Below, piece by piece: positions 41,427 to 54,038 of a DNA stretch of 64,000 bases. Source of the DNA: an uncultured Clostridium sp. (lineage in GTDB: Bacteria > Bacillota > Clostridia > TANB77 > CAG-508); assembly GCA_945877035.1 (NCBI GenBank), contig CAMCQH010000004.1, positions 3,212 to 67,211 on the forward strand. Reading direction: 5' to 3'. The number at the start of each line of letters is the position of its first letter. Positions within the stretch are counted from its first letter, which is position 1. Made by a program: the position numbers and the translations under genes. The notes beneath the pieces were generated by a model, which was not told the DNA's origin, ran no database searches, and worked only from the letters and a program-made list of their open reading frames with translations.

Positions 41427-41472
41427 AAAAATAAAGTGAAATTATTAATTCTATAATTTCACTTTATTTTTT
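41427..41472. terminator. Bidirectional terminator (end of T4SS-like operon and J-domain gene)
   Basis: Perfect 13-bp stem aaagtgaaattat (41433-41445) / ataatttcacttt (41453-41465), with A-run and T-run flanks. Confidence 0.8.
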
Positions 41473-42721
41473 AATTCATATTAAATGAAATTTGAAATTT
41501 TGTATTATCACCCAATAACATTATTATCTCTATGTCGTTTTCTTCTGAAGATAAAGAATATCCAGATTTAAAATGTATATCTACAATATAATAGTTTCCT
41601 TCTTTTTTTAAAGTAGAATTATCTATATAATTATAATCAAAAAAATGATTTTCAATATAATTTTCAAAATCAATTATATTCTTAAAATATCTTTCCCTAT
41701 ATGTAATATTTAAATAATTATTATAAATTTCTTCATATTCCTTGTTATTTAGTAATTTAAATATTTTATCTACATTTGTAACAACTTTAGTATCATCATT
41801 TGATTCATTATATTTTTTAACAAACTCCTCTGATTCTAATGTATAATTATCTAAAAGTATAGTATAATTCATTACACTTTTTTCTTTTATTATATAACAA
41901 TTATTATAATTATCAATTATAGTATATTTTGTATAATCTTCAAAATTATCAACTGAATATTTTACCATCACTGCATTTTTTATTTTATCAATATTATTAT
42001 CAATATACTCTTCAAACAGATTAAAATTACTAAATTTTTTTTCTATATATTCTGAATCTAATAATTTATAAGCTACATCTTTTTTATATATCATATATTT
42101 TATATATTCATAAAAATATTTTTCTACAATATCTTCATTATAAATTGTAATGTCAGTATATCCATTTACATTGTTTTTTTGTATAATTTCATTTGGATCA
42201 TTCTTTATATAGTTTAAATCACTCTCTAAATATTCACTTCCACATAATGCAATTGAAAATGTAGCATTATTTTTATCTAATACAACTATAAAATAATAAT
42301 CTTCTTCACTTGTAATATCTTTTAAATTTTTATCTCTTATTTTAGTATATACATAATACTTAGAATTACTTTCATTATCAATTCCCCACATTTTTTGAGC
42401 TACACTTTCTTTTTCTTGTTTAAGTTCTAAAATATTTTTACTCTTATAATATTTGTTTTCTATTTCCTTTACTAATTCACTATCTTTAACTAAATAATCC
42501 AAATATAAATTTATGCAATTTTCAACAGTATAAAATGTATTTGCATCTTCAATTAAATGTATATAATCTTTTTCTTCATATTCATCAACATGAGAATGAT
42601 CATTTTCATTGCCTATATCACTTATACTAGTATTACTATTTAATTTTAATAATACCATACATATTATTAAAATAATTATTATAACTAAAAATATCATTAT
42701 TAGTCGCTTTAATTTTTTCAT
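41471..42721 (-). CDS. T4SS-locus protein, N-terminally anchored, unknown function (416 aa)
   Basis: ATG 42721 follows GGGAGGG. TM is LIMIFLVIIIILIICMVLL. Last gene of the co-oriented cluster. Confidence 0.6.
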   Translation of the reverse strand: MKKLKRLIMIFLVIIIILIICMVLLKLNSNTSISDIGNENDHSHVDEYEEKDYIHLIEDANTFYTVENCINLYLDYLVKDSELVKEIENKYYKSKNILELKQEKESVAQKMWGIDNESNSKYYVYTKIRDKNLKDITSEEDYYFIVVLDKNNATFSIALCGSEYLESDLNYIKNDPNEIIQKNNVNGYTDITIYNEDIVEKYFYEYIKYMIYKKDVAYKLLDSEYIEKKFSNFNLFEEYIDNNIDKIKNAVMVKYSVDNFEDYTKYTIIDNYNNCYIIKEKSVMNYTILLDNYTLESEEFVKKYNESNDDTKVVTNVDKIFKLLNNKEYEEIYNNYLNITYRERYFKNIIDFENYIENHFFDYNYIDNSTLKKEGNYYIVDIHFKSGYSLSSEENDIEIIMLLGDNTKFQISFNMN

Positions 42722-42741
42722 ATAATCCCTCCCAAATACAA

Positions 42742-45069
42742 TTAATTTCCTGTATATGAAAAATGCATATAATCTTGATAATTTCCTGACCAGTTTCCTC
42801 CCCATTTCCATCCTATACTTTCAAATGCCTTTACTAAAACTCCATCTCTTGGAATTGAATATTCACTTATTGATGGATTCCAAAAACTACCTGCATATAT
42901 TGTAGAACCTCTATGAGAATAATTTTCATTAACATTTATATCAATTGCTACCCCATAAGAATGATGCGATAACTTTCCACTTCCACCATTATTCATAATT
43001 CTATAAGAATATCCTGAGGCTTCATATACTTTAAATCCTGAATTCTGTGCCAATTGAAATACCTTTTGAACATCTGACGCCAAACTCTTATGTATTCTTA
43101 AGTTTCCAGTTGTTTTTGTGCCATCTTTTTTAGTTAATGCAATTTGCACTATTGTCAAATAACTTTCACAAGCACTCTGTGATGTAGGAGTACCATTAGG
43201 AAATAAATATTTCAATTTTTCAGAAGAAGATCCTTGTGTAGGTGCATTTCCATCAATGCTAATTGATTCCATACTGATTCCTACTGCCTTATAAAATTGC
43301 TGTATATCTGCCATATATGTTTCATAAGATGCTCCCCCGTACACAGGAGCTATTTGACTAAGAGTAAATTTTTGAGCTTTATAATAATAGTCTCCATTAG
43401 CAATATTATCTGCAAAATCTATTGTTGCTTCATTAAAACTTGAATATACTCTCCATGTTCTCGGATTTGTACTATTTGGATTTTTATATGTTTTCCCATT
43501 ATAATATCCTGTAAGGCTCATCCAATTATAAGTTGATGGATCAATAGCATCCCAATCAGTACCACATTGTGATTCTTCTTTTGCTACTGCTATTGCAAAA
43601 ACAGCATTAACATGATATTTATCTTGTATCTCCATTAATTCATCTACAACGCTAAGTAAATTAGTTTGCTTTTGACCTGAAAATACTGCTTTTATTCCCT
43701 TTATCAATATATTTTTATCTTTTATAACAAGATTAGATGAACTTTTTGATGTATCAACCATATAATCTGAAGTATTATAATATGAAAAATCTACTTCTTC
43801 ATATAAGCTTTTAATATCATCAATGTCCTTAACCCCATAATAATTCCCAGTAGCAACATACAACAAATATTTAGTCAAATTCACCATATTAGCTGTACTA
43901 GTATTTCTTTCCAATATTTCAAAAAGCATAAGAGCACTACTATCTAAATTTTGCTTTGTATATGGATACTTATTTAAAATAGTTATAAAATTTCTTTCAT
44001 TTGAATCTTTATCAACCTTAGGTTTTGAAGTTACATTTCCATCGTCATCTTTTTTATAATCCATAATCCATGTATCAGCCTTTGTCAAGTCCGCATTAAC
44101 ATTATTAGTTTCTACTGTAGTTGTAATAGTTGTTGTTTTTGTTTTATTCACTGTTTTCTTTTCCTTATATTTCTTTCCCGTTTTAGGATCTGTTACGTCT
44201 ACTTCTTCAGTAACAGTTATCGTTTCTGATTTTGGACCATCAACATCTGGTGTACTTGAATAATTTTCAATTCCCGTAATATCTATAGAACTATCTTCTA
44301 TAACATAATCTGCTAACTCTAATACAAACTTTTTACCATTAGTTGTTATTAACAATGCCCACAAATAATCAAATGGCATACTATATTTCTGTACTACTGA
44401 TTTATAATTAATCATGGCTGATGTCATGCTATAAGTTATAGTTGTTTCACTAGTAGGAGTTGATCCATCCACAGACACCTCTACTGTTTTTGTTGTTTTA
44501 GTCCACTGAGCTATAAGGGCATTTCCATTAGCATCAATAGTATAATACTTTAATGCTGTTTCATCTCCATCTGTATTATATGCATCAATATAAGAATTAA
44601 AAGTTTCTTCATCTACATATTTCAAATCAATTACACTTTTATCAGTTTTACGCCTTTTAAATTCTATTATTCCATCTAATTCCCCTTTACCTATTTTAGG
44701 ATTTTGTGTAACTATTTCTGCTTTCATAAGTTTTTCAAGTTCTTCTGGTGATTTCAAATATTTTTTTACATTAGAACCATTTTGTATCATAGTATCCCAC
44801 AATTCTTGTGGTGTCATTTCAGTAACCAATCCATTTGAAGTAATAGTTACTCCATTTGTATATGTAGACGCAGCATATGGAACGTTTTTTAAATCTCCTT
44901 CTTTAAGTACTCCTTCAATTAAATTAAGTATATATATAAGTCCTGAAAACAGTAGTATAAAAATAATTATACAAATAAGTGCAATTATAAATACTTTAGA
45001 AAACAATAATTTTTTTAGTGCTTTTTTACCAAGTTTTTTAAATACATTTTTTACATCTGCCATATACAA
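42742..45069 (-). CDS. bifunctional peptidoglycan hydrolase (glucosaminidase/lysozyme-like plus M15 VanY-like peptidase), VirB1/PrgK analogue
   Basis: N-terminal TM. The central segment AVFAIAVAKEESQCGTDW...YSSFNEATIDFADNI is glucosaminidase-like. The C-terminal LSHHSYGVAIDIN...GWKWGGNW...DYMHFSY matches the M15 H-x6-D...H pattern. The start may be ATG 45063. Confidence 0.7.
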   Translation of the reverse strand: MYMADVKNVFKKLGKKALKKLLFSKVFIIALICIIIFILLFSGLIYILNLIEGVLKEGDLKNVPYAASTYTNGVTITSNGLVTEMTPQELWDTMIQNGSNVKKYLKSPEELEKLMKAEIVTQNPKIGKGELDGIIEFKRRKTDKSVIDLKYVDEETFNSYIDAYNTDGDETALKYYTIDANGNALIAQWTKTTKTVEVSVDGSTPTSETTITYSMTSAMINYKSVVQKYSMPFDYLWALLITTNGKKFVLELADYVIEDSSIDITGIENYSSTPDVDGPKSETITVTEEVDVTDPKTGKKYKEKKTVNKTKTTTITTTVETNNVNADLTKADTWIMDYKKDDDGNVTSKPKVDKDSNERNFITILNKYPYTKQNLDSSALMLFEILERNTSTANMVNLTKYLLYVATGNYYGVKDIDDIKSLYEEVDFSYYNTSDYMVDTSKSSSNLVIKDKNILIKGIKAVFSGQKQTNLLSVVDELMEIQDKYHVNAVFAIAVAKEESQCGTDWDAIDPSTYNWMSLTGYYNGKTYKNPNSTNPRTWRVYSSFNEATIDFADNIANGDYYYKAQKFTLSQIAPVYGGASYETYMADIQQFYKAVGISMESISIDGNAPTQGSSSEKLKYLFPNGTPTSQSACESYLTIVQIALTKKDGTKTTGNLRIHKSLASDVQKVFQLAQNSGFKVYEASGYSYRIMNNGGSGKLSHHSYGVAIDINVNENYSHRGSTIYAGSFWNPSISEYSIPRDGVLVKAFESIGWKWGGNWSGNYQDYMHFSYTGN

Positions 45070-45093
45070 ATTTCACCTCCCATATAAGCTATT

Positions 45094-53605: not shown

Positions 53606-53621
53606 AAAAATCACCTTTTAA

Positions 53622-53981
53622 TTATAAATCTTGTGCAAAATTATATATTATATAAGAAATATTGCTTATTGCAAAAACTAATATTGCTCCTATTATATAA
53701 TATATCATTGTTTGTTTAAACTCAGCTTTTTCTTCAATACTTCCTAGCATATATTTTATTCCTACTAAAACTAATGCTAAAATTGAAACAATATTCCCTA
53801 CTGCTTGAAATCCACCTATCATTTTTCCTGCAAAAGTTAATGCATCATTGTCTTCTATTAATTCATCAGGTTTATAATCAACAGAATTTATCATTGCTTT
53901 TACATTCGTAACATTTATTATATTTATAATTGCAAAAACGATAATTATTATTAAAAATATTTTGTTAAATTTTTTCACCAA
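53622..53981 (-). CDS. VirB2/TrbC-like pilin-like protein, paralog 1 (about 118 aa)
   Basis: Probable GTG 53978 start. Signal/TM, TM1, the loop KYMLGSIEEKAEFKQ, then TM2. Confidence 0.65.
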   Translation of the reverse strand: MVKKFNKIFLIIIIVFAIINIINVTNVKAMINSVDYKPDELIEDNDALTFAGKMIGGFQAVGNIVSILALVLVGIKYMLGSIEEKAEFKQTMIYYIIGAILVFAISNISYIIYNFAQDL

Positions 53982-54009
53982 ATCACCATCTTTCTTGCTA
54001 TCTAAATTG

Positions 54010-54038
54010 ATTATAACTTATTTTTATTTTTTTTTCAA
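54010..54038 (-). promoter_or_regulatory. sigma-A consensus-like promoter of the pilin-like gene array
   Basis: Minus strand reads TTGAAA (54033-54038), 17 nt, TATAAT (54010-54015), about 30 nt upstream of the first pilin start. Confidence 0.65.

What the first reader, a model, noticed from the sequence alone, without database searches (positions are those of the whole stretch)
41471..54038. Type IV secretion-like locus with pilin-like genes but no coupling protein, relaxase or recombinase
Seen, gene content: eleven co-oriented genes run in this order.
- Four VirB2/TrbC-like small proteins, with their own promoter and terminator.
- A PrgI/VirB3-like protein.
- A TM protein with a VirB4-N-like region.
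- A VirB4 ATPase with Walker A and B motifs.
- An 857-aa VirB6-like polytopic protein.
- An anchored 321-aa protein.
- A glucosaminidase plus M15 peptidoglycan hydrolase.
- An anchored 416-aa protein.

Seen, missing functions: nothing in 37-57 kb resembles a VirD4/TcpA/FtsK-type coupling ATPase, a relaxase, or an integrase belonging to this block. The flanks are two DUF4143 ATPases, a J-domain protein and a HipA-like pair.

Established: conjugative T4SS of monoderm bacteria need VirB4, a coupling protein and a relaxase, and are generally described as lacking VirB2-type pilins. Pilin-like proteins have been annotated in Mollicutes-type ICEs.

Inference, two readings:
(a) A non-conjugative, T4SS-derived pilus or secretion or contact apparatus in an endospore-former.
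(b) A mating-pore module that works in trans with relaxase/Rep-bearing elements, such as the Rep_trans element only 3 kb away.

Either reading would be unusual and worth pursuing.
Basis: partly seen in the sequence, partly recalled or inferred. Interest (0 to 1): 0.8.

Follow-up and report, generated by a model that had tools for sequence, protein, structure and literature searches.

The report
Core chromosomal VirB2-pilus machine in gut Clostridia
This is not a broken conjugative element: it is a type IV secretion-derived pilus machine with no coupling protein or relaxase nearby, fixed beside the replication origin and inherited vertically in several hundred uncultured gut Clostridia species, which matters because such a system was known only from Patescibacteria.

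Summary
Eleven co-oriented minus-strand genes (41471-53981) encode:
- four VirB2/TrbC-like prepilins in their own transcription unit;
- PrgI/VirB3;
- a TrsD-like protein resembling the VirB4 N-terminal domain;
- a VirB4 ATPase;
- a VirB6-like polytopic protein;
- two membrane-anchored NTF2-repeat proteins;
- a cell-wall hydrolase.

No coupling protein or relaxase lies anywhere in the 64-kb window. The only integrase belongs to a separate 4.6-kb element.

The block is not an island. The VirB4 query matched at least 568 stretches in a one-genome-per-species collection. In the 80 loci examined the gene order is the same. Where the upstream flank is present, the position is also the same: mnmG-rsmG-parA-parB-DUF4446-tRNA-Ser x2-cluster.

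VirB4 evolves like a housekeeping gene (85.6% mean identity, dN/dS about 0.05). The surface parts diverge fast.

The closest known system is the chromosomal, origin-proximal, relaxase-less T4SS of Patescibacteria, which has VirB2 pilin arrays and was reviewed in 2025 as unique among monoderms.

Reading (a), a non-conjugative T4SS-derived apparatus, is supported. Reading (b) is not. The exact function is inferred, not shown. I rate it a new variant of a known kind, interest about 0.7.

The parts
54010..54038 (-). Promoter-like site (TTGAAA-17-TATAAT) upstream of the pilin operon
   Evidence: 11/12 match. This is a consensus match only; such sites are not enriched over shuffles in this AT-rich DNA.
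53622..53981 (-). VirB2/TrbC-like prepilin 1 (119 aa): signal peptide, variable N-terminal segment, two TM helices separated by an EEKAE-K loop
   Evidence: Pfam T4SS_pilin 30.1 bits, above cut-off; TrbC 23.7 bits. Alignment.
53216..53614 (-). Divergent pilin paralogue 2 (132 aa from a GTG start)
   Evidence: T4SS_pilin 16.6 bits, below cut-off. It falls in the same BLAST cluster as the other pilins and has the same architecture.
52790..53143 (-). VirB2/TrbC-like prepilin 3 (117 aa)
   Evidence: TrbC 42.5 bits and T4SS_pilin 32.8 bits, both above cut-off.
52410..52763 (-). VirB2/TrbC-like prepilin 4 (117 aa), a recent duplicate of pilin 3
   Evidence: TrbC 42.2 bits and T4SS_pilin 33.3 bits. 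Alignment.
52360..52396 (-). Intrinsic-terminator-like hairpin plus T7 run that ends the pilin operon
   Evidence: Sequence read. The hairpin is present in both the MFE and the centroid fold. The consensus scan missed it because the stem is AT-rich.
52227..52235 (-). Extended -10 (TGCTATAAT) ahead of the machinery operon; a GGAGG RBS precedes the PrgI start
   Evidence: Read directly from the sequence. Its role as a promoter is inferred.
51832..52182 (-). PrgI/VirB3-like small membrane protein (116 aa)
   Evidence: Pfam PrgI 28.6 bits, cut-off 27. An orthologue is present in 80/81 loci.
50601..51839 (-). TrsD-like protein (412 aa): N-terminal TM helix followed by a domain resembling the VirB4 N-terminal domain
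   Evidence: NCBIfam VirB4_plasma positions 49-281, E=3.7e-6. Precomputed PF26593 TraC-like. AF2 model pLDDT 66, with Foldseek top hits to TrwK/VirB4. Present in 81/81 loci.
48686..50653 (-). VirB4-family ATPase (655 aa) lacking the usual N-terminal domain
   Evidence: Pfam P-loop_TraG, AAA_10 and DUF87. NCBIfam CD1110 family, 208 bits, and VirB4_plasma positions 284-891. Walker A and B motifs retained in 81/81. dN/dS about 0.05.
46089..48662 (-). VirB6-like polytopic membrane protein (857 aa) with a long, low-complexity C-terminal extension
   Evidence: All hits are sub-threshold: T4SS_pilin and TrbL_4; MMCAP2_0566, Mbov_0396 and pLS20_p028. The position directly after VirB4 is conserved.
45094..46059 (-). 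Bitopic protein (321 aa): TM helix, linker, NTF2-like domain, Ig-like beta-sandwich. It has VirB8-like topology.
   Evidence: AF2 model pLDDT 82. Foldseek hits are the PBP2a NTF2-like N-domain and YjhA/MPT63 beta-sandwiches, not VirB8, TraM or TcpC.
42742..45069 (-). Membrane-anchored peptidoglycan hydrolase (775 aa), in the VirB1-type role
   Evidence: Pfam Glucosaminidase and Peptidase_M15_4. Orthologous positions in other species carry different lytic domains, for example C39_2 plus Phage_lysozyme2.
41471..42721 (-). Bitopic protein (416 aa from the second Met) with three tandem repeats of the p321-type NTF2-like module
   Evidence: hhalign finds an internal repeat, residues 67-243 against 196-359, prob 91.5%. 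The p321 module matches at three positions. It has no Pfam, NCBIfam or PDB sequence hits.

Best explanation
The block is a domesticated type IV secretion apparatus. It is related to the monoderm conjugation machinery (closest curated VirB4 families: C. difficile CD1110 and Mollicutes-ICE types). It is a core, vertically inherited chromosomal locus of a large clade of low-GC, small-genome gut Clostridia. That clade is probably GTDB order TANB77, but this is inferred, not tested.

Proposed mechanism:
1. A strongly expressed pilin operon supplies three to five Sec-exported VirB2/TrbC-type pilins to the membrane.
2. A second operon builds the machine: PrgI/VirB3, a TrsD-like split-off VirB4 N-domain protein and a VirB4 hexameric ATPase at the cytoplasmic face.
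3. A VirB6-like polytopic protein forms the membrane platform or channel.
4. Two bitopic NTF2-repeat proteins act as a VirB8-like scaffold through the wall.
5. A dedicated hydrolase cuts the peptidoglycan.
6. VirB4 ATP hydrolysis extracts pilins from the membrane and polymerises them into a conjugative-type filament.

There is no coupling protein or relaxase in the locus, and the locus is not mobile. I therefore conclude that it is not the transfer module of an element. I propose it is a host organelle for contact with other cells or surfaces, and for exchange (uptake or delivery) through or along that pilus. This parallels the Patescibacteria T4SS.

Shown: gene content, synteny, vertical inheritance and the selection pattern.
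Inferred: pilus assembly, expression level and the contact or exchange function.
For: - Gene content matches Pfam and NCBIfam families.
- The VirB4 query matched at least 568 stretches in a one-genome-per-species collection.
- In all 80 loci fetched the order pilins-PrgI-p412-VirB4-VirB6-p321-hydrolase-p446 is kept.
- Recurrent neighbours are MnmE, MnmG, RsmG, ParA, ParB and DUF4446 upstream, and an ABC ATPase or a DnaJ-domain protein downstream.
- The tRNA-Ser(tga)/tRNA-Ser(gct) pair sits directly upstream of the pilins in 20/20 loci checked.
- Contigs carrying the identical DUF4446 protein show GidB-ParA-ParB-DUF4446.
- Mean pairwise identity over 37 species: VirB4 85.6%, ParA 84.8%, MnmG 83.1%, ParB 76.6%, RsmG 62.3%.
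- VirB4 divergence correlates with that of the housekeeping neighbours, Spearman 0.60-0.67.
- dN/dS is 0.05-0.08 for VirB4, and 0.5-0.97 for VirB6, p321 and p446, all of which stay intact.
- The catalytic motifs are retained in 81/81 orthologues.
- No homologue of the Clostridium plasmid T4CP is found in any locus or in the window.
- The whole clade collapses into one 50%-identity cluster, and the next relatives are at about 40%.
- Plasmid relatives share the core order, and one has a true T4CP. This indicates an origin from a conjugation system.
- Published precedent with the same architecture and origin-proximal position: PMC12102498 and PMC12857230.
Against: - No expression, filament or phenotype data exist.
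- A T4CP and a relaxase could be encoded elsewhere in these genomes, as T4CP homologues are in most Patescibacteria. Only the 64-kb window and +/-10 kb of the 80 loci were examined.
- The VirB6 and VirB8-like assignments are sub-threshold or at fold-class level only.
- The p412 structural match is weak (E=0.03).
- dS is near saturation, so the high dN/dS values of the surface parts are unreliable.
- The clade name (TANB77) is not verified.
- The specific function of contact and exchange is an analogy.
Confidence: 0.7

Rival explanations
1. DNA-uptake machine. The VirB2 filament and the VirB4 ATPase capture and import environmental or neighbour-cell DNA, as in the Helicobacter pylori ComB system or the archaeal Ced/Ted systems. 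Those systems also lack a coupling protein and a relaxase.
For: - The locus has the same minimal composition: pilins, VirB3, VirB4 and VirB6, with no T4CP or relaxase.
- Precedents are described in PMC9905601 and PMC12857230.
- The system is conserved like a host function.
Against: - No competence or recombination genes (comEC, comF, dprA, radA) are among the recurrent neighbours.
- The CedD NCBIfam hit is a trivial P-loop match, 23.8 bits against a cut-off of 600.
- In the one tested analogue (Southlakia), the T4SS was essential independently of ComEC-dependent competence (PMC12857230).
- Whether the clade lacks ComG/ComEC could not be checked.
Confidence: 0.12
2. Resident mating pore used in trans. 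The chromosome supplies the channel, while integrative mobilisable elements or plasmids bring their own relaxase and coupling protein. Alternatively, a T4CP is encoded elsewhere in the genome.
For: - Small integrative elements do insert right next to the locus in the window and in L022.
- In many conjugative systems the T4CP lies with the relaxase, far from virB4 (PMC12102498).
- Plasmid relatives of this VirB4 are linked to a T4CP.
Against: - The neighbouring 4.6-kb element has no detectable relaxase, Rep_trans or T4CP.
- That element is present in only 2 of 81 loci.
- A pore kept for parasites would not be expected to sit in a fixed core position with VirB4 under purifying selection as strong as ParA and MnmG across hundreds of species.
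- No T4CP lies within +/-10 kb in any locus.
Confidence: 0.1
3. Contact-dependent or secreted-effector protein export system, either for interbacterial antagonism or acting on the host, that uses a T4CP-independent route as the Bordetella Ptl and Brucella VirB systems do.
For: - T4CP-less protein-secreting T4SSs exist (PMC12102498, PMC12857230).
- Fast evolution of the surface components fits an arms race.
Against: - No conserved candidate effector or immunity genes lie in or next to the block.
- Known T4CP-less exporters take Sec-exported substrates from a periplasm, which a monoderm lacks.
Confidence: 0.06
4. Decaying remnant of an integrative conjugative element that has lost its DNA-processing genes and has no function.
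For: It lacks a T4CP, a relaxase and an integrase, and mobile DNA lies nearby in this window.
Against: - All eight core gene families are intact wherever contigs allow.
- Gene order is identical in all 80 species, and the chromosomal position is the same wherever the flanks are present.
- VirB4 dN/dS is about 0.05, and the catalytic motifs are retained in 81/81.
Confidence: 0.02

Closest known systems
Patescibacteria (CPR) chromosomal T4SS (Wang et al. 2023; Quinonero-Coronel et al. 2025, PMC12102498)
   Same: - It has tandem arrays of divergent VirB2-like pilins next to virB4.
- It contains PrgI/VirB3, TrsD (resembling the VirB4 N-terminal domain), VirB4 and VirB6, with lytic enzymes downstream.
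- It has no relaxase in the cluster.
- It is chromosomal, origin-proximal and mostly vertically inherited.
- Its hosts have small genomes and are uncultured or host-dependent.
   Different: - The host here is a spore-forming member of the Clostridia (Bacillota).
- The origin marker is parAB-DUF4446-tRNA-Ser rather than dnaA/dnaN.
- A dedicated hydrolase and two NTF2-repeat proteins are constant parts here, whereas VirB1 and VirB8 homologues are rare in Patescibacteria.
- Whether this VirB4 is sister to the Patescibacteria clade was not testable.
- Essentiality is unknown.
T4SS blocks of Clostridium plasmids (C. botulinum p12/29-type NZ_KT897275; C. beijerinckii NZ_CP107023)
   Same: - They carry the closest VirB4 found on annotated replicons, at 42% identity.
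- They share the order small membrane protein - PrgI-like - about 335-aa p412 homologue - VirB4 - about 870-aa VirB6-like - large hydrolase.
   Different: - They are plasmid-borne.
- They have a single pilin-like gene, which matches the pilin profile only weakly (E=2.8e-4) and has no Pfam hit.
- The C. beijerinckii plasmid also encodes a genuine T4CP (TraG-D_C, TrwB_AAD_bind) 12 kb upstream.
- These blocks are presumably conjugative, although MOB-suite types both plasmids as non-mobilizable.
Mollicutes ICE transfer genes (NCBIfam Mbov_0395 pilin-like, Mbov_0396 TM protein, Mbov_0397 VirB4)
   Same: They are among the best curated-family matches for the pilins, the VirB6-like protein, p412 and VirB4 (for VirB4 the CD1110 family scores slightly higher). 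p412 and VirB4 together cover the single 894-aa Mbov_0397 model.
   Different: - All scores are far below the family cut-offs.
- The Mollicutes systems are on mobile ICEs in wall-less cells, with the VirB4 domains fused.
Helicobacter pylori ComB and archaeal Ced/Ted DNA-import systems
   Same: They are T4SS-derived and use a VirB4-family ATPase plus VirB2-like pilins. They have no T4CP or relaxase and serve a host function rather than element transfer.
   Different: - They work in diderm or archaeal envelopes.
- There is no sequence affinity beyond the P-loop.
- No DNA-processing genes are linked to the locus here.
Canonical Gram-positive conjugation systems (pCF10 Prg, pIP501 Tra, pCW3 Tcp, C. 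difficile CTn CD1110 family)
   Same: They share a VirB4, PrgI/VirB3, a VirB6-like protein, a bifunctional wall hydrolase and bitopic NTF2-fold (VirB8-like) proteins.
   Different: - Those systems have a T4CP and a relaxase, sit on mobile elements, and are described as lacking VirB2 pilins (PMC12857230).
- VirB4 here scores 208 bits against the CD1110 cut-off of 325.

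Membership tests
Conjugative T4SS of a mobile element (monoderm ICE or plasmid, MPF_FATA type) | VirB4-family ATPase with intact Walker motifs | tested here: met
Conjugative T4SS of a mobile element (monoderm ICE or plasmid, MPF_FATA type) | Type IV coupling protein (VirD4 or TcpA type) associated with the system | tested here: not met
   No such Pfam family was found in the 64-kb window ORFs scanned. There is no BLAST or tblastn hit to the related plasmid T4CP in the window or in the 80 loci +/-10 kb. The rest of the genome could not be examined.
Conjugative T4SS of a mobile element (monoderm ICE or plasmid, MPF_FATA type) | Relaxase (MOB family) | tested here: not met
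   No relaxase, Mob or Rep_trans Pfam hit was found in the window. No such family appears among the recurrent neighbours in the 80 loci. This is tested at locus level only.
Conjugative T4SS of a mobile element (monoderm ICE or plasmid, MPF_FATA type) | Carried on a mobile element: own recombinase, att borders, variable location | tested here: not met
   The position between parAB-DUF4446-tRNA-Ser and core genes is fixed across species. The only integrase belongs to a separate 4.6-kb element.
Patescibacteria-type chromosomal T4SS | Array of VirB2-like pilin genes adjacent to virB4 | tested here: met
   There are four in the window. Most of the related loci carry three or four.
Patescibacteria-type chromosomal T4SS | PrgI/VirB3, TrsD-like protein and VirB6 next to virB4 | tested here: met
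   PrgI is above cut-off. The TrsD-like assignment rests on three weak, independent lines. VirB6 is sub-threshold but consistent. No TrsD profile was available for a direct test.
Patescibacteria-type chromosomal T4SS | No relaxase in the cluster; chromosomal, origin-proximal, vertically inherited | tested here: met
Patescibacteria-type chromosomal T4SS | VirB4 falls inside the monophyletic Patescibacteria VirB4 clade | not testable with these tools
   No labelled Patescibacteria VirB4 sequences could be obtained. The representative hits carried no taxon names.
Patescibacteria-type chromosomal T4SS | Required for growth or for an epibiotic lifestyle | not testable with these tools
   This needs genetics or culture. 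Only housekeeping-level conservation is shown.
TrbC/VirB2 pilin family (PF04956 / PF18895) | Score above the Pfam gathering threshold; signal peptide plus two TM helices | tested here: met
   Pilins 3 and 4 pass both models, and pilin 1 passes PF18895. Pilin 2 fails both but shares the architecture.
ComB / Ced-Ted DNA-import T4SS | Sequence membership (CedD or ComB families) or linkage to DNA-uptake and processing genes | tested here: not met
   CedD scores 23.8 bits against a cut-off of 600. No competence genes are among the recurrent neighbours.
VirB8-like (PrgL, TraM, TcpC) scaffold proteins | Bitopic protein whose extracytoplasmic domain has the VirB8-type NTF2-like fold | tested here: inconclusive
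   The p321 model has a TM helix plus an NTF2-like domain. However, Foldseek returned the PBP2a N-domain, not VirB8, TraM or TcpC. p446 has three repeats of that module.

The most novel reading that the evidence does not exclude
The VirB2-pilus T4SS is an indispensable organelle of an uncultured, reduced-genome order of gut Clostridia. Published work shows that TANB77, the order I infer for this clade, also conserves a Tad pilus. The T4SS would underlie a partner-dependent lifestyle through contact with, and uptake from, other gut bacteria or host cells, as in Saccharibacteria. Its lineage would be the Firmicutes sister or donor of the Patescibacteria T4SS. Conjugative-type pili would then be an ancestral option of monoderm T4SSs rather than a Patescibacteria oddity.
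Probability: 0.15. Interest if true: 0.9.

Novelty: new variant of a known kind. Interest (0 to 1): 0.7.

Why it matters
A 2025 field-wide review (PMC12857230) states that VirB2 pilins are absent from Gram-positive T4SSs, with Patescibacteria as the single exception. It calls those systems unique among monoderms. This locus shows the same design as a core, origin-proximal and strongly conserved feature of several hundred species of true Firmicutes from human and animal guts.

Consequences:
- It widens the question from 'a CPR peculiarity' to 'a recurrent domestication of conjugation machinery in small-genome, uncultured bacteria'.
- It offers culturable entry points. Clostridium botulinum and C. 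beijerinckii plasmids carry the same core with a candidate pilin, so one can test whether Gram-positive cells build conjugative-type pili.
- It gives a candidate sister lineage for the origin of the Patescibacteria system.
- If the clade is TANB77, a group linked to immunotherapy response through another pilus, then abundant and fast-evolving surface pilins may also matter for host interaction.

Tried and rejected
- Profile searches of p412, p321 and p446 against PDB sequences gave nothing meaningful.
- hhalign of the p412 family against the clade's own VirB4 family showed no similarity. This is consistent with VirB4 here lacking the N-terminal domain.
It was redone with database homologues. 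Diversity was low for p412, hence pLDDT 66.
- Foldseek for p321 did not return VirB8-like proteins, so 'VirB8-like' is kept at fold-class level only.
- Attempts to name the outgroup VirB4 representatives gave almost no taxon names, so the relationship to Patescibacteria VirB4 could not be tested.
- Literature searches for the NCBI bin names (CAG:343, CAG:575, CAG:389) together with TANB77 found nothing. The TANB77 assignment stays an inference from low GC, the 1.4-1.6 Mb contigs carrying orthologues, gut origin and the NCBI 'Clostridia bacterium' labels.
- The 'conserved TANB77 pilin' paper (PMC11680825) describes a Tad pilus, which is a different cluster.
- Rep_trans identity of the 366-aa neighbour protein is rejected.
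- The island or ICE-remnant reading is rejected.
- Rfam and tandem-repeat scans found nothing relevant in the block.
- I did not Pfam-scan the 69 lineage-specific ORFs of 250 aa or more in the related loci.

Full report
**1. What is in the window**

The window is low-GC (26%) Clostridia chromosome. It carries sporulation and germination genes (spoIIR, sleB-type hydrolase, ypeB, GerM-like) and origin-proximal housekeeping genes (SRP RNA-dnaX-ybaB-recR, rlmH, DUF4446).

- Pfam places pilins 3 and 4 in TrbC/VirB2 and T4SS_pilin above the curated cut-offs.
- Pilin 1 is in T4SS_pilin above cut-off.
- Pilin 2 is a divergent paralogue, below cut-off but with the same architecture.
- PrgI, VirB4 (P-loop_TraG, AAA_10, DUF87) and the Glucosaminidase plus M15 hydrolase are also at or above cut-off.
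- The VirB6-like call rests on sub-threshold matches (T4SS_pilin, TrbL_4; NCBIfam MMCAP2_0566, Mbov_0396, pLS20_p028), and on size, topology and position.

The 412-aa protein resembles the N-terminal region of Mollicutes-type VirB4 (NCBIfam VirB4_plasma positions 49-281, E=3.7e-6). The 655-aa VirB4 covers positions 284-891 of the same model.

- All close homologues of the 412-aa protein carry the precomputed Pfam family PF26593 'TraC-like'.
- A moderate AF2 model (pLDDT 66) has R388 TrwK/VirB4 chains as five of its eight best Foldseek hits, though only at E=0.03.
- This matches the published description of TrsD as 'remotely homologous to the N-terminal portion of VirB4' (PMC12102498).

p321 models confidently (pLDDT 82) as a TM helix, a linker, an NTF2-like domain and an Ig-like beta-sandwich. 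p446 (416 aa from its second Met) contains three repeats of the same NTF2-like module.

The pilin genes form their own unit. A good -35/-10 match lies at 54038-54010. A hairpin plus T7 run follows pilin 4 (about 52396-52360). An extended -10 and a GGAGG RBS precede PrgI.

**2. What is missing, and what the neighbours are**

No VirD4, TcpA or FtsK-type ATPase and no relaxase was detected among the window ORFs of 90 aa or more that were scanned, which were nearly all of the non-nested ones.

The tyrosine integrase at 57211-58389 belongs to a 4.6-kb integrative element. That element is delimited by 124-nt direct repeats (57065-57188 and 61685-61808, 98% identical). The repeats duplicate the promoter and the first 27 nt of tRNA-Ser(tga).

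- The element's 366-aa protein is not detectably Rep_trans. It has no Rep_trans hit; the only Pfam hit up to E=5 is an unrelated DUF1090 match (E=0.076), and there is no NCBIfam hit.
- Its only family hit is a PHROG 'replication initiation protein' match.

**3. The decisive result: the block is not an island**

A scan of one genome per GTDB species with the VirB4 protein found at least 568 matching stretches. The best 80 were all gut MAGs labelled Clostridia or Clostridium, with 82-96% VirB4 identity.

In all of them the order pilins (mostly 3-4 copies)-PrgI-p412-VirB4-VirB6-p321-hydrolase-p446 is kept.

- The recurrent upstream neighbours are MnmE, MnmG, RsmG, ParA, ParB and DUF4446, sometimes with an EpsG-like membrane protein.
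- The tRNA-Ser(tga)/tRNA-Ser(gct) pair sits immediately before the pilins in 20 of 20 loci tested.
- Contigs carrying the window's own DUF4446 protein show GidB-ParA-ParB-DUF4446.
- The window differs only by insertions. These are HipBA plus a DUF4143 ATPase between the tRNAs and the pilins, the 4.6-kb element upstream of the tRNAs, and RNaseH-RepL, patatin and DUF4143 at the far end.
- No homologue of the T4CP of the related C. beijerinckii plasmid occurs in any locus or in the window.

**4. Evolutionary pattern**

Mean pairwise identity among 37 species that have both the cluster and the par genes:

| Protein | Identity |
|---|---|
| VirB4 | 85.6% |
| ParA | 84.8% |
| MnmG | 83.1% |
| ParB | 76.6% |
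| PrgI | 64% |
| RsmG | 62.3% |
| p412 | 57% |
| p321 | 43% |
| VirB6 | 37% |
| p446 | 32% |

- VirB4 divergence correlates with that of ParA, ParB, MnmG and RsmG (Spearman 0.60-0.67).
- Against the closest species, dN/dS is 0.05-0.08 for VirB4, 0.1-0.27 for PrgI and about 0.2 for p412.
- dN/dS is 0.5-0.97 for VirB6, p321 and p446. dS is near saturation, so these upper values are rough.
- The Walker A and B motifs are retained in 81/81 orthologues.
- In a library clustered at 50% identity the whole clade is a single cluster. The next relatives are at about 40%.

This is the signature of long vertical inheritance under strong selection on the motor. The exposed parts diversify rapidly. It does not fit recent horizontal spread or decay.

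**5. Relatives elsewhere**

- A 65%-identical VirB4 (L083) sits in the same architecture but with different flanks, and no T4CP is visible.
- The closest VirB4 on annotated replicons (42%) is on C. botulinum p12/29-type plasmids and a C. beijerinckii plasmid.
- These share the order small membrane protein - PrgI-like - about 335-aa p412 homologue - VirB4 - about 870-aa VirB6-like - large hydrolase.
- The C. beijerinckii plasmid also encodes a genuine T4CP.
- Relatives at 30-40% lie on contigs, several of which also carry element-like genes such as dnaN, RadC and Tad-like genes.

The chromosomal system therefore most likely derives from a conjugation module of this Firmicutes lineage.

**6. Comparison with what is known**

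The architecture, the lack of a relaxase, the chromosomal origin-proximal position and the vertical inheritance match the Patescibacteria T4SS (PMC12102498). That system's pilin array, PrgI, TrsD, VirB4, VirB6 and downstream lytic enzymes are essential for epibiotic growth of Southlakia.

The 2025 nomenclature review calls these systems unique among monoderms for their potential to make conjugative pili. It states that VirB2 is otherwise absent from Gram-positive T4SSs (PMC12857230).

I found no paper describing this locus in Clostridia. The 'conserved TANB77 pilin' paper concerns a Tad pilus.

The host clade is probably TANB77. The grounds are gut origin, 24-32% GC, single contigs of 1.4-1.6 Mb carrying orthologues, and NCBI 'Clostridia bacterium' labels. 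I could not verify this.

**7. Mechanism and confidence**

I am confident (about 0.85) that this is a domesticated, vertically inherited T4SS-derived machine and not part of a mobile element.

I consider it likely, by homology, that it assembles a VirB2-type filament. The steps would be:
- Sec-exported pilins are extracted by the VirB3/TrsD/VirB4 motor.
- They pass through a VirB6 platform.
- They cross a wall opened by the hydrolase and scaffolded by the NTF2-repeat proteins.

The biological role I favour is cell contact with exchange, as proposed for Patescibacteria. This rests on analogy and on the fast evolution of the surface parts.

DNA import (ComB or Ced-like), a pore used in trans, and T4CP-independent protein export remain possible. 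A decaying ICE is excluded.

The decisive missing test is a whole-genome search for a T4CP and a relaxase in complete genomes of the clade, followed by expression and filament evidence.

Noticed in passing
window 57065-61808: A 4.6-kb integrative element bounded by 124-nt direct repeats (98% identical) that duplicate the promoter and first 27 nt of tRNA-Ser(tga). It carries a tyrosine integrase, an HTH_17 excisionase-like gene, a 366-aa replication-initiator-like protein, an S24 cI-like repressor and a cro-like gene. A related element sits at the same site in L022. Insertion at the 5' side of a tRNA gene is uncommon.
   Followed up: partly
window 54086-56744: A HipA-like kinase, a small HipB-like ORF and a DUF4143 ATPase are inserted between tRNA-Ser(gct) and the pilin operon. 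HipA and the small ORF have no counterpart in the 80 related loci, and DUF4143 has one distant match (36%, L019). In the loci checked, the tRNAs abut the pilins.
   Followed up: partly
window 37454-40485: A second window-specific insertion: an RNase H-RepL-HTH fusion protein, a patatin-like phospholipase and another DUF4143 ATPase. In L047 and L067 the DnaJ-domain gene lies next to the CoA-enzyme activase gene.
   Followed up: partly
window 10301-18703 (minus strand): A 2800-aa putative surface protein with SdrD_B, DUF11 and CarboxypepD_reg repeats, next to tRNA-Arg(cct). It is a possible adhesin and is unrelated to the T4SS block.
   Followed up: no
window 4536-5006 and 5041-5691: An MGDG-synthase/glycosyltransferase-28-type gene appears split into two adjacent ORFs, one with the N-terminal domain and one with the C-terminal domain. 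This could be a frameshift, a sequencing error or a real split.
   Followed up: no
L085 18897-22019; L086 20604-22040: In the relatives with 35-36% VirB4 identity, Tad/type IV pilus-like genes follow the T4SS-like block (T2SSE and T2SSF in L085; only T2SSE visible at the end of L086). A dnaN-like sliding-clamp gene precedes it. The two pilus systems are physically linked there.
   Followed up: no
proteins P0327 and P0391 (76% identical to window 50601-51839): JGI names these p412 homologues 'hypothetical protein cdiviTM7_00582', which is a candidate-division TM7 locus tag. This is either contamination of a TM7 single-cell assembly or a hint of a sequence-level link to Saccharibacteria.
   Followed up: no
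window 46089-48662 (aa 168-235); L081 13074-15668 (aa 87-154): The VirB6-like proteins of both the chromosomal and the plasmid systems contain an N-terminal two-helix segment with weak T4SS_pilin (PF18895) similarity. It looks as if a pilin-like module is fused to VirB6.
   Followed up: no
L021 14307-18284, L077 15383-18220, window 42742-45069: The hydrolase slot keeps its position but swaps catalytic domains between species. The window has Glucosaminidase plus M15. L021 has Peptidase_C39_2 plus Phage_lysozyme2. The common 945-aa form has no Pfam hit.
   Followed up: partly
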